Positions 31,601-34,600 are shown, counted from the first letter of the stretch. The stretch is 64,000 nt of DNA from Escherichia coli 042 (GCF_000027125.1 NC_017626.1); one strand, 5' to 3'. Numbers: made by a program.

Positions 31601-34600
31601 CAGGCGCGCCGTCGGTGGGGTTAAATCGAGTAATTTCTCCAGCGCCTTAGAAGAACGCTGACGCGCGCGCGCTTCCAGCATATGGCCGAGATTGATCAGA
31701 CCGATAATCATCGCGCTGGCTTCGTAATAAAGATGTCGCGCTTCCATCGGGAACCACTGCGGCCACAGGTTGACGCTCATCGAATAGAGCCACGCCACGC
31801 CCGTACCCAGCGCCACCAGCGTATCCATTGTCGCCGCGCCGTTCAGCAGGCTTTTCCATGCACTGCGGTAAAAATGCCCGCCGGCGAAAACCATTACCGC
31901 CAGGGTTATCAGGCCGATAACCAACCACAGGCTGCGGTTGTCGGCGGTGACCATCATGTTATCGCCGATCATCCCCCAGACCATCACCGGGATACCCACC
32001 GCCAGTGCGACAATCGCCTGCCAGCGGAAGCGCTTCATCGTAGCGACGGCGGTTTCTTGCTGGCGCTCGCGGCGTTTAGCGTCATCTTCAATCGCTTCCG
32101 CGCCGTAGCCCGCTTTTTCCACCGCCTGCACTAAATCTTGTGGGGAGGCACTGCCCATCACCAGCGCAGTACGCTCCGCCAGGTTTACCCGTGCCTGAGT
32201 GACGCCCGGTACGCTTTGCAACGCATTTTGTACGCGGGTGACACAGCTGGCGCAGCTCATGCCGCTCAGCAGCAACTGCTGGCTGTCATCGTCATCGGCG
32301 GTCGCTGCCGGAAGCGCCTCAGAAACCGCTGTCAGTGCTTCCGACGGGATTGATGACTCCGCCAGCGGTTTAGCCTTTGGGTGGCTTACAGATGCGTCAT
32401 AACCCGCTTGTTTGATGGTTTCGATCAGCTGTTCTGCACTGGCAGTCCCGGTAACGTGCGCTTCAGTGACAGACACATCCGCCTGCTCAACATCCGGCCG
32501 CTGTTCGAGACTTTCTTTCACGCGTTTAACGCAGTGACCGCAGGACAGGCCGTCCAGGGTCAGGTCGATAGTTTGTGACATAAAACACTCCTTTTAAGAC
32601 AGTTTTGACTGGCTGTGATAAAGGTTAAACCTTCCAGCAAGGGGAAGGTCAAGAAATTAATAAACCAGGCGGGTAAAAGTCCGTAAAGATTAAAAAATCG
32701 GCTCGATTTGCATCAGGATTAGACATTTATCTCTTTGTTTTCCTGTAGTTAAGTTGCGGGTGCTAAGTTAAATCAGGATGCCTGAAAATCGGCACCGGGG
32801 TGAGGAATTACCTCCCGCATCTATAAAAAGGAGTTAACAAAAGATGTTAGATGCAAACAAATTACAGCAGGCAGTGGATCAGGCTTACACCCAATTTCAC
32901 TCACTTAACGGCGGACAAAATGCCGACTACATTCCCTTTCTGGCGAATGTACCTGGTCAACTGGCAGCAGTGGCTATTGTGACCTGCGATGGCAACATCT
33001 ATCGCGCGGGTGATAGTGATTACCGCTTTGCGCTGGAATCCATCTCGAAAGTCTGTACGTTAGCCCTTGCGTTAGAAGATGTCGGCCCGCAGGCGGTACA
33101 GGACAAAGTTGGCGCTGACCCGACCGGATTGCCCTTTAACTCAGTTATCGCCTTAGAGTTGCATGGCGGCAAACCGCTGTCGCCACTGGTAAATGCTGGC
33201 GCTATTGCCACCACCAGCCTGATTAACGCTGAAAATGCCGAACAACGCTGGCAGCGAATTTTACATATCCAACAACAACTGGCTGGTGAGCAGGTAGCGC
33301 TCTCTGACGAAGTAAACCAGTCGGAACAAACAACCAACTTCCATAACCGGGCCATTGCCTGGCTGCTGTACTCCGCCGGATATCTCTATTGTGATGCAAT
33401 GGAAGCCTGTGACGTGTACACCCGTCAGTGCTCCACGCTCATCAATACTGTTGAACTGGCAACGCTTGGCGCGACGCTGGCGGCGGGTGGTGTGAATCCG
33501 CTGACTCATAAACGCGTTCTTCAGGCCGACAACGTGCCGTACATTCTGGCTGAAATGATGATGGAAGGGCTGTATGGTCGCTCCGGTGACTGGGCGTATC
33601 GCGTTGGTTTACCGGGCAAAAGCGGTGTAGGTGGCGGTATTCTGGCGGTCGTCCCTGGCGTGATGGGAATTGCCGCGTTCTCACCACCGCTGGACGAAGA
33701 AGGCAACAGTGTTCGCGGTCAAAAAATGGTGGCATCGGTCGCTAAGCAACTCGGCTATAACGTGTTTAAGGGCTGATCATGATGAACACGGAAGGTAATA
33801 ACGGTAACAAACCCCTCGGTCTATGGAACGTCGTTTCCATCGGCATTGGGGCAATGGTGGGGGCGGGGATCTTCGCGCTGCTGGGGCAGGCTGCGTTGCT
33901 AATGGAAGCCTCGACCTGGGTCGCCTTTGCTTTTGGCGGTATTGTGGCGATGTTTTCCGGTTATGCCTATGCGCGCCTGGGGGCGAGCTATCCCAGCAAT
34001 GGCGGTATTATCGACTTCTTTCGTCGCGGATTAGGCAACGGCGTCTTTTCGCTGGCACTCTCGTTATTGTACCTGTTGACGCTGGCGGTGAGCATCGCCA
34101 TGGTCGCCCGTGCTTTTGGCGCTTATGCCGTGCAGTTTTTGCATGAAGGCAGTCAGGAGGAGCACCTTATATTGCTCTACGCGTTGGGGATCATTGCGGT
34201 GATGACGCTTTTCAACTCCTTAAGCAACCATGCGGTAGGGCGGCTGGAAGTGATCCTCGTCGGCATTAAAATGATGATCCTGTTATTGCTGATCATTGCA
34301 GGTGTCTGGTCGCTGCAACCGGCGCATATTTCTGTCTCTGCGCCCCCCAGCTCCGGTGCGTTCTTCTCCTGTATCGGGATAACCTTCCTTGCCTATGCGG
34401 GCTTTGGCATGATGGCGAACGCAGCGGATAAAGTGAAAGATCCGCAGGTCATTATGCCACGGGCGTTTCTGGTGGCGATTGGCGTTACCACGTTGCTTTA
34501 TATCTCGCTGGCGCTGGTTTTGCTTAGCGATGTATCGGCATTAGAGTTAGAAAAATATGCCGATACCGCCGTAGCGCAGGCAGCTTCTCCGCTGCTCGGG

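What the first reader, a model, noticed from the sequence alone, without database searches (positions are those of the whole stretch)
32600..32660. CueR operator at copA lies about 28 kb from cueR, with the secretion island in between
The perfect dyad ccttcc-N7-ggaagg sits in the copA promoter at 32630-32648, while cueR is at 60985. The regulator and its best-known target are therefore separated by glsA-ybaT plus the whole 26-kb island. No second copy of this dyad was seen by eye in the island promoter region (35120-35408), arguing against direct CueR control of the adhesin operon.
Basis: partly seen in the sequence, partly recalled or inferred. Interest (0 to 1): 0.25.

Follow-up and report, generated by a model that had tools for sequence, protein, structure and literature searches.

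The report
Known CueR operator; island separates cueR
The dyad is the textbook binding site of the copper sensor CueR in the E. coli copA promoter, and its 28-kb distance from cueR is an ordinary, common strain difference (the known OI-28 adhesin island) that does not matter for a freely diffusing regulator.

Summary
CCTTCC-N7-GGAAGG sits exactly at 32630-32648. It is the only exact copy in the window, and none of 100 shuffles contained one. On copA's strand it fills the 19-bp spacer of TTGACC-N19-TAACCT and ends 2 bp before the -10. This is the published PcopA/CueR architecture, and K-12 cueO carries the same dyad. copA and cueR both pass their NCBIfam equivalog cut-offs. The dyad lies 28,337 bp from the cueR ATG here and 2,548 bp in K-12.

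The intervening 25.8 kb is O-island 28 of O157:H7. It encodes a TolC/LssB/HlyD type I secretion system and a SiiEA giant adhesin. Its 5' end is present in 958 of 5426 complete E. coli genomes. Published work shows control by RstA and RpoS, and the published RstA box is exact at 35115-35128. The island's upstream region has no CueR-like site: the best match has 5 of 12 mismatches, which is background level.

One addition: K-12's short ybaT-cueR spacer is a deletion scar. It keeps the last ~95 bp of the island's HlyD gene and has lost the ybaT terminator. In island strains the cueR ATG overlaps the HlyD stop codon (ATGA). So the 28-kb spacing is the older state, and any link more likely runs from the island to cueR than from CueR to the island.

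The parts
32630..32648 (.). CueR core operator, the perfect dyad CCTTCC-N7-GGAAGG
   Evidence: one exact hit and none in 100 shuffles. The core sequence is as defined in PMC8169799. The dyad is identical in K-12, ST2747 and Escherichia sp. MOD1-EC7003.
32622..32652 (-). PcopA: -35 TTGACC (32652-32647), 19-nt spacer, -10 TAACCT (32627-32622); the box ends 2 bp before the -10
   Evidence: sequence read directly. One search gives the 19-bp spacer and 2-bp box-to-(-10) distance of wild-type PcopA. The 16-18 nt consensus scan misses it, as expected for this spacing.
30077..32581 (-). copA, the Cu(I)-exporting P-type ATPase (834 aa)
   Evidence: NF007952 scores 1747.8 bits against a cut-off of 1316; 97.1% nt identity to K-12 copA. 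RefSeq annotation.
32844..35071 (+). glsA (32844-33776) and ybaT (33779-35071), transcribed divergently from copA
35083..35105 (+). Intact intrinsic terminator of ybaT (10-bp stem, then CTTTGTCTTT). The K-12 deletion breakpoint cuts its 3' arm.
   Evidence: -16.1 kcal/mol with z -4.40 in the window, against no hairpin in K-12 (z +1.25); alignment.
35115..35128 (+). RstA box TAATTCAAATTACC of the OI-28 regulatory region
   Evidence: exact match. The box sequence is from PMC12758282.
35409..36764 (+). TolC-family outer-membrane component of the island's type I secretion system (tolC28/Z0608 homologue)
   Evidence: TIGR01844 scores 415 bits..
36873..57650 (+). Giant SiiEA/BapA-related Ig-repeat adhesin gene, interrupted here by two frameshifts and one in-frame stop
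   Evidence: NF047714 adhesin_SiiEA, Ca_tandemer repeats and the T1SS C-terminal target domain; the interruptions; annotated as a pseudogene in ST2747.
57654..59816 (+). Type I secretion ABC permease/ATPase (LssB type; hlyB28 homologue)
   Evidence: TIGR03375 scores 835 bits.
59813..60988 (+). HlyD-family periplasmic adaptor (hlyD28 homologue). Its stop codon overlaps the cueR start codon (ATGA).
   Evidence: TIGR01843 scores 328 bits and aligns to the end of the model.
60890..60984 (+). The last ~95 bp of the HlyD gene, which survives as the K-12 ybaT-cueR spacer. The 26 nt before the cueR ATG are invariant across Escherichia.
60985..61392 (+). cueR, the Cu(I)-responsive MerR-family regulator (135 aa)
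   Evidence: NF007590 scores 308.6 bits against a cut-off of 244, and TIGR02044 scores 207.5 against 147.4.

Best explanation
The dyad is the canonical CueR operator of the E. coli copA promoter. Shown here: the published core CCTTCC-N7-GGAAGG sits inside a 19-bp spacer between TTGACC and TAACCT and ends 2 bp before the -10, directly upstream of a copA orthologue, in a genome that encodes an orthologous CueR. From established work: a CueR dimer stays bound at this site, and when loaded with Cu(I) it bends and under-twists the over-long spacer so that sigma-70 RNA polymerase can use both hexamers. CueR is a diffusible protein, so it does not matter where cueR is encoded. The 25.8 kb between ybaT and cueR is the known O-island 28, a type I secretion system plus a SiiEA-type giant adhesin. 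It has its own AT-rich promoter region with an RstA box and no CueR site. CueR therefore does not directly control the island (inferred from the absence of a site; no expression data are available). The 28-kb spacing is the older arrangement. K-12-type genomes lost the island by a deletion from inside the ybaT terminator to 95 bp before the end of the HlyD gene.
For: Operator: searches give the exact dyad, its uniqueness and its promoter geometry. (PMC8169799) gives the defining core, the 19-bp spacer and the 2-bp offset. Searches show the same dyad and frame at cueO. One search shows that the 161-bp promoter segment matches in 5422 of 5426 E. coli genomes, with at least 80% of it covered in 5401. 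One search gives the CopA and CueR equivalog scores.

Island identity and regulation. One search shows the exact RstA box. Searches cover PMC12758282 (RstA ChIP, EMSA and lacZ fusions). One search shows Z0608 and Z0609 to be 55-fold and 20-fold RpoS-dependent.

No CueR site.

Deletion polarity: one search gives the breakpoints (K-12 ..8897 = window ..35099; K-12 8900.. = window 60890..). One search shows the remnant with a 1-bp frameshift shared by K-12 and Escherichia sp. MOD1-EC7003, a different scar in E. albertii that keeps ~60 bp, and a HlyD gene that continues in E. whittamii (only 38 bp readable beyond the K-12 breakpoint), E. sp. E1V33 and a divergent E. coli. One search shows that the HlyD model aligns through the residues encoded by the remnant. 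One search shows that PGAP annotates the remnant as a frameshifted, N-terminally missing pseudogene. Searches count 958 island genomes and 4458 scar genomes out of 5426.
Against: Nothing contradicts the operator assignment. The conclusion that CueR does not control the island rests only on the absence of a site, and no copper transcriptome of an island-bearing strain was found. Deletion polarity is shown relative to K-12-type and E. albertii genomes only. According to Permina et al. 2006, Salmonella has a simple copA-cueR divergon. On a deeper time scale, therefore, glsA-ybaT and the island were presumably inserted between copA and cueR in an Escherichia ancestor.
Confidence: 0.9

Rival explanations
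1. The link runs the other way: transcription of the island feeds into cueR. cueR's ATG lies inside the last codons of the HlyD gene (ATGA), and no terminator or recognisable promoter lies between them. In island strains cueR would therefore be the structural last gene of the RstA/RpoS-controlled secretion operon. In K-12-type strains the deletion removed the ybaT terminator and instead joined cueR to the acid- and copper-induced glsA-ybaT unit.
For: Searches show the 4-bp overlap. One search finds no plus-strand promoter-like or terminator-like site in 60300-61000. One search shows the overlap conserved in four Escherichia lineages and both independent scars retaining the HlyD 3' end. One search shows the ybaT terminator strong in the window and abolished in K-12. 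Permina et al. already treated K-12 cueR as the last gene of a ybaS-ybaT-ybbI operon; hlyD28 mRNA is RstA-dependent.
Against: There are no transcript data. The adhesin gene upstream is broken by frameshifts and a stop codon in this window, which would favour Rho-dependent polarity before RNA polymerase reaches cueR. The consensus scan is crude, so a weak constitutive cueR promoter inside the HlyD 3' end remains possible. That would also explain why both scars keep this stretch. This reading complements the main explanation and does not exclude it.
Confidence: 0.3
2. The island is a recent horizontal insertion into a K-12-like copA-glsA-ybaT-cueR layout. This is the usual reading of an 'O-island', and PMC12758282 speaks of 'acquisition'.
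For: The distribution is patchy, 958 of 5426 genomes. The upstream region is AT-rich at 32% GC. The paper uses the word 'acquisition'.
Against: K-12's spacer contains the frameshifted last ~95 bp of the HlyD gene. An insertion cannot create that. E. albertii has a second, different scar. The island with the same cueR overlap is present in other Escherichia species.
Confidence: 0.05
3. Copper controls the island indirectly, without a second dyad. Copper-induced glsA-ybaT transcription would read through the ybaT terminator into tolC28, which lies 337 bp downstream on the same strand.
For: ybaST is up-regulated by excess copper (review PMC10903455; PMC9628877). The genes are on the same strand and adjacent.
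Against: The intrinsic terminator at 35083-35105 is strong and intact (-16.1 kcal/mol, z -4.4, with a U-tract). The review states that ybaST copper induction is not directly associated with CueR. The primary paper could not be read.
Confidence: 0.07
4. The dyad is a chance palindrome or the site of a different MerR-family regulator.
For: None found.
Against: No shuffle contains an exact copy. The dyad matches the published CueR core exactly, with the correct spacer and offset. It is identical to the sequence in K-12 PcopA, which was used for the CueR-RNA polymerase cryo-EM structures.
Confidence: 0.01

Closest known systems
E. coli K-12 PcopA / CueR operator (MerR-type promoter with a 19-bp spacer)
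   Same: The 19-bp dyad is identical. So are the -35 TTGACC, the 19-bp spacer, the -10 TAACCT, the 2-bp gap between box and -10, and the position upstream of copA.
   Different: Nothing differs at the site itself. Only the location of cueR differs: 28.3 kb away here and 2.5 kb away in K-12.
O-island 28 of EHEC O157:H7 EDL933 (tolC28-rtxA28-rtxB28-hlyB28-hlyD28; PMC12758282)
   Same: It has the same position between ybaT and cueR and the same gene set. The upstream region is 98.5% identical to an O157:H7 strain and has the RstA box at the same place.
   Different: The adhesin gene is interrupted at different or additional points in this window. The paper treats the island as acquired and does not mention that hlyD28 overlaps cueR.
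Salmonella copA-cueR divergon and the classical merR-merT divergon
   Same: The same regulator family and the same operator type inside a 19-bp spacer.
   Different: In those systems the regulator gene is adjacent and divergent, so one site serves both promoters. In Escherichia, glsA-ybaT lies between operator and regulator, with or without OI-28, so the divergon logic is lost.
cueO promoter, the second CueR target in E. coli
   Same: Same core dyad, same -35 TTGACC and same 19-bp spacer.
   Different: The central 7 bp differ (CGTAAGG versus CCTTGCT on the coding strands) and so does the -10 (TATGCT). It is unlinked to cueR, which shows that linkage is not needed.

Membership tests
CueR operator / MerR-type copper-responsive promoter | Core inverted repeat CCTTCC-N7-GGAAGG | tested here: met
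   The definition is quoted in PMC8169799.
CueR operator / MerR-type copper-responsive promoter | The dyad lies within an over-long 19-bp spacer between sigma-70 -35 and -10 hexamers | tested here: met
   TTGACC, 19 nt, TAACCT..
CueR operator / MerR-type copper-responsive promoter | 2-bp distance between the box and the -10 element, as in wild-type PcopA | tested here: met
   GGAAGG-tt-TAACCT..
CueR operator / MerR-type copper-responsive promoter | Drives a copper-homeostasis gene (copA orthologue) | tested here: met
   NF007952 scores 1747.8 bits against a cut-off of 1316..
CueR operator / MerR-type copper-responsive promoter | The cognate CueR is encoded in the genome | tested here: met
   NF007590 scores 308.6 bits against a cut-off of 244.
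CueR operator / MerR-type copper-responsive promoter | Cu(I)-dependent activation by bound CueR | not testable with these tools
   Needs footprinting, a reporter assay or RNA-seq. It has been shown for the identical K-12 sequence in the literature.
OI-28 type I secretion / SiiEA adhesin island | TolC-family OMP, T1SS ABC transporter and HlyD-family adaptor | tested here: met
   TIGR01844, TIGR03375 and TIGR01843, all above their cut-offs.
OI-28 type I secretion / SiiEA adhesin island | Giant Ig-repeat adhesin with a BapA-type N-terminus and a T1SS C-terminal signal | tested here: met
   NF047714, NF033510 and TIGR03661. The reading frame is interrupted three times, so function in this strain is doubtful.
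OI-28 type I secretion / SiiEA adhesin island | Chromosomal position between ybaT and cueR | tested here: met
OI-28 type I secretion / SiiEA adhesin island | RstA box TAATTCAAATTACC upstream of the OMP gene | tested here: met
   exact at 35115-35128. It is absent as an exact match in the divergent strain E600003.
OI-28 type I secretion / SiiEA adhesin island | RstA- and Ca2+-dependent expression and a role in adherence | not testable with these tools
   Reported for EDL933 in PMC12758282.
CueR regulon membership of the island operon | A CueR box in the promoter region | tested here: not met
   no hit with 3 or fewer mismatches in 35072-35408 or 36765-36872; best match 5 of 12 mismatches, which is background; the same in O157:H7 and E600003.
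CueR regulon membership of the island operon | A MerR-type 19/20-bp-spacer promoter facing the operon | tested here: inconclusive
   my scan found only weak 20-bp-spaced hexamer pairs on the opposite strand and none on the plus strand. However, its threshold also missed the genuine PcopA (weak -10), so this test lacks a working positive control; the plus-strand candidates have 18-bp spacers.
CueR regulon membership of the island operon | Copper- and cueR-dependent expression | not testable with these tools
   No such data were found. The OI-28 paper never mentions copper or cueR. See also the literature search.

The most novel reading that the evidence does not exclude
The deletion that created the K-12-type layout rewired the transcriptional input to the copper sensor. 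In island strains cueR is the overlapping last cistron of the RstA/RpoS/Ca2+-controlled adhesin-secretion operon, so CueR dosage would follow island expression. In K-12-type strains, loss of the ybaT terminator joins cueR to the acid- and copper-induced glsA-ybaT transcript. This could underlie the reported cross-talk between acid and copper resistance in MG1655. A practical corollary is that delta-OI-28 and delta-hlyD28 mutants may alter cueR expression.
Probability: 0.25. Interest if true: 0.4.

Novelty: already known. Interest (0 to 1): 0.15.

Why it matters
As written, the finding matters little. It re-identifies one of the best-characterised bacterial operators and a described genomic island, and it correctly concludes that the two are not directly connected. 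The by-products have modest value.

1. The K-12 reference arrangement of the cue locus is a derived deletion state. Its cueR upstream region is a HlyD pseudogene fragment, and the ybaT terminator is missing.
2. In roughly one in six complete E. coli genomes, including O157:H7, the cueR start codon lies inside the last gene of the OI-28 operon. Anyone who deletes OI-28 or hlyD28, or who generalises cueR transcription from K-12, should take this into account.

Tried and rejected
1. Relaxed dyad searches at 2 and 3 mismatches gave 5 and 26 hits against 1.96 and 21.2 expected. All hits other than copA lie inside ORFs and have no TTGAC upstream. I rejected them as chance.

2. I tried alternative half-site spacings of 5-9 and lone half-sites in the island's upstream region. 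The only result was a single GGAAGG at 35390, which sits in the ribosome-binding region of the OMP gene. Rejected.

3. My own scan for MerR-spacing promoters failed its positive control. PcopA's -10 TAACCT matches only 3 of 6 positions, so the threshold was too strict. I therefore do not rely on that scan, and the geometry of PcopA was read directly.

4. The consensus promoter scan found no plus-strand promoter for cueR in 60300-61000. This is uninformative, because the scan is crude.

5. Djoko et al. 2017 (PMC5495233) could not be read. CueR-independence of ybaST copper induction is therefore cited only from a review.

6. I searched for expression data on Z0608-Z0635 under copper and found none.

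7. An Rfam scan of the window found only the DnaX frameshift element and sroB/ChiX. Nothing was found in the copA-glsA region.

I therefore could not examine cueR neighbourhoods outside Escherichia directly.

Full report
**1. What the window is**

The window is an E. coli chromosome segment. The 30000-36000 stretch matches 5422 of 5426 complete E. coli genomes, with strain ST2747 best at 99.8%. RefSeq annotation of that strain, together with a K-12 comparison, gives this gene order:
- copA, 30077-32581, minus strand
- glsA, 32844-33776
- ybaT, 33779-35071
- a TolC-family gene, 35409-36764
- a giant adhesin gene, 36873-57650
- an ABC transporter gene, 57654-59816
- a HlyD-family adaptor gene, 59813-60988
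- cueR, 60985-61392

**2. The observation**

It is the only exact match in the window, and none of 100 dinucleotide-preserving shuffles contained one.

Read on copA's strand, the region is tcTTGACCttccccttgctggaaggttTAACCTtta:
- The -35 TTGACC is at 32652-32647.
- The spacer is exactly 19 nt and is filled by the dyad.
- The -10 TAACCT is at 32627-32622.
- Two bases separate the dyad from the -10.
- The copA ATG is at 32581.

These are the features reported for wild-type PcopA: the core CCTTCC-N7-GGAAGG, a 19-bp spacer and a 2-bp distance from box to -10 (PMC8169799). The 19-bp dyad is identical in K-12, ST2747 and Escherichia sp. MOD1-EC7003. The 161-bp promoter segment matches in 5422 of 5426 genomes, with at least 80% of it covered in 5401. 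K-12's other CueR target, cueO, has the same dyad in the same TTGACC-N19 frame.

CopA scores 1747.8 bits against its equivalog cut-off of 1316. CueR scores 308.6 bits against a cut-off of 244.

**3. How it works**

This part rests on established knowledge of the identical K-12 site and was not tested here. A CueR dimer occupies the dyad. With Cu(I) bound, it bends and under-twists the 19-bp spacer, which realigns the two hexamers for sigma-70 RNA polymerase.

CueR is a soluble protein that acts in trans. Its other known target, cueO, lies hundreds of kilobases from cueR in K-12. The 28,337 bp between the dyad and the cueR ATG, against 2,548 bp in K-12, therefore has no mechanistic consequence.

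**4. The island**

The intervening block is O-island 28 of O157:H7.
- The upstream region plus the OMP gene is present in 958 of 5426 complete genomes, always once and always on the chromosome. These include many O157:H7 strains.
- The proteins match the T1SS TolC family, the SiiEA/BapA-related adhesin with Ca-stabilised Ig repeats and a T1SS C-terminal signal, the LssB-type ABC exporter, and the T1SS HlyD family.
- A 2025 study shows that the island promotes early adherence and colonisation and is directly activated by RstA. It maps an RstA box, TAATTCAAATTACC. That box is present exactly at 35115-35128.
- An earlier EDL933 transcriptome found Z0608 and Z0609 to be 55-fold and 20-fold RpoS-dependent.
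- Neither paper involves CueR or copper.

**5. Is there a CueR site at the island?**

No.
- No match with 3 or fewer mismatches falls in 35072-35408 or in the 36765-36872 gap.
- The best match upstream of the OMP gene has 5 of 12 mismatches. This is the modal value for any 337-bp tile of the window. Other half-site spacings do no better.
- The result is the same for the island promoters of an O157:H7 strain and of the most divergent island found, at 95% identity.
- The near-miss dyads elsewhere in the window occur at chance frequency, lie inside ORFs and lack a -35.

The caveat is that absence of a site is not expression data, and I found none.

**6.

Aligning K-12 to the window shows that homology stops at window 35099 and resumes at 60890. 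K-12's 124-bp ybaT-cueR spacer therefore consists of about 29 bp of ybaT 3' flank followed by the last ~95 bp of the HlyD-family gene, which carries a 1-bp frameshift.

Several results support a deletion in K-12:
- The HlyD family model aligns through the residues that this stretch encodes.
- PGAP independently annotates the stretch in DH5alpha as a frameshifted, N-terminally missing pseudogene that overlaps the cueR start.
- The K-12-type junction covers at least 80% of the query in 4458 of 5426 genomes.

A scan of one genome per species for the HlyD-stop/cueR-start junction found five Escherichia lineages:
- Escherichia sp. E1V33 and a divergent E. coli continue far into the HlyD gene.
- E. 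whittamii also continues into the gene, but the locus held extends only 38 bp beyond the K-12 breakpoint, so this case is only suggestive.
- Escherichia sp. MOD1-EC7003 has the K-12 breakpoints and the same 1-bp deletion.
- E. albertii has a different scar. It keeps an intact-looking ybaT hairpin, about 100 bp of unrelated DNA and only the last ~60 bp of the HlyD gene.

K-12-type genomes therefore lost the island. The 28-kb spacing is the older state within Escherichia.

According to Permina et al. 2006, Salmonella has a plain copA-cueR divergon without ybaS-ybaT. On a deeper time scale, the intervening genes were presumably inserted in an Escherichia ancestor. That is an inference, and I could not examine those genomes.

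**7. Consequences for cueR transcription (inference)**

In island strains the cueR ATG overlaps the HlyD stop codon (ATGA at 60985-60988). No terminator-like or consensus promoter-like site lies on the plus strand just upstream. The 26 nt before the ATG are invariant across all seven sequences compared.

The K-12 deletion removed the 3' arm and the U-tract of the ybaT terminator. The hairpin folds at -16.1 kcal/mol (z -4.4) in the window and is absent in K-12 (z +1.25). This fits the older view of a ybaS-ybaT-ybbI operon in K-12.

If any regulatory link exists between the island and CueR, it is more likely read-through from the island operon into cueR than control of the island by CueR. In K-12-type strains cueR may instead receive input from the acid- and copper-induced glsA-ybaT unit. 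No transcript data were available. In this window the interrupted adhesin gene would favour polarity. I rate a measurable effect at about 0.25-0.3.

**8. Verdict**

The feature is already known: the PcopA CueR operator and OI-28. Interest is low. The deletion-scar origin of K-12's cueR upstream region and the overlap of cueR with hlyD28 are small but useful additions, mainly as a caution for people who work with OI-28 mutants or who extrapolate cueR regulation from K-12.

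Noticed in passing
window 36873-57650: The giant SiiEA-type adhesin gene is interrupted three times: a frameshift near 38207/38293, a frameshift at about 45816-45819 and an in-frame stop at 51069-51071. PGAP also marks the ST2747 and E600003 copies as pseudogenes. The adhesin may therefore not be made intact in this strain.
   Followed up: partly
window 60985-60988 and K-12 L002:8898-8994: The cueR start codon overlaps the stop codon of the island's HlyD-family gene (ATGA). K-12's cueR upstream region is the frameshifted 3' remnant of that gene, which PGAP annotates as a pseudogene in DH5alpha. The OI-28 paper built delta-OI-28 and delta-hlyD28 mutants and never mentions cueR.
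   Followed up: yes
window 35083-35105: The ybaT intrinsic terminator is intact and strong here (-16.1 kcal/mol, z -4.4). The deletion breakpoint destroys it in K-12, so K-12 has no obvious terminator between ybaT and cueR.
   Followed up: yes
window 61596-63858 (runs towards the window end): Downstream of cueR, where K-12 has ybbJ directly, the window has a 140-aa lipoprotein-like ORF (minus strand, no NCBIfam hit) and a repeat-rich YadA-like trimeric autotransporter gene. Part of it matches in 1416 of 5426 E. coli genomes, including O157:H7. At least 80% of it is covered in only 259 genomes. It is also present in Escherichia sp. E1V33.
   Followed up: partly
window 29732-30080: K-12's ybaQ gene and its neighbouring REP elements (727 bp) are replaced by an unrelated, GC-rich 349-bp segment between ybaP and copA. 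ST2747 has no annotated gene there.
   Followed up: partly
window 34508-34524: The sigma-54 binding motif mapped inside ybaT in K-12 (PMC4591121, site IS02) is present with one mismatch (CTGGCGCTGGTTTTGCT). In K-12 the next downstream gene is cueR. Here it is the island's OMP gene.
   Followed up: no
window ~32375-32381 (minus strand; copA nt 201-207): The CCCAAAG slippery heptamer of the copA programmed frameshift, which yields the CopA(Z) chaperone annotated in K-12, is conserved.
   Followed up: partly
window 13607-13671 and 28783-28866: Rfam matches to the DnaX ribosomal frameshifting element and the sroB/ChiX small RNA, both at their expected K-12 positions.
   Followed up: no
L005:7321-7551 (E. 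coli SCPM-O-B-8794): This divergent E. coli-like genome has a 2-bp insertion within the last ~20 codons of the HlyD-family gene, which would shift its frame just before cueR.
   Followed up: no
L009:1473-1809 (E. coli E600003): The most divergent island promoter found (95% identical) lacks an exact copy of the published RstA box, so RstA control may not be uniform across island-bearing strains.
   Followed up: no
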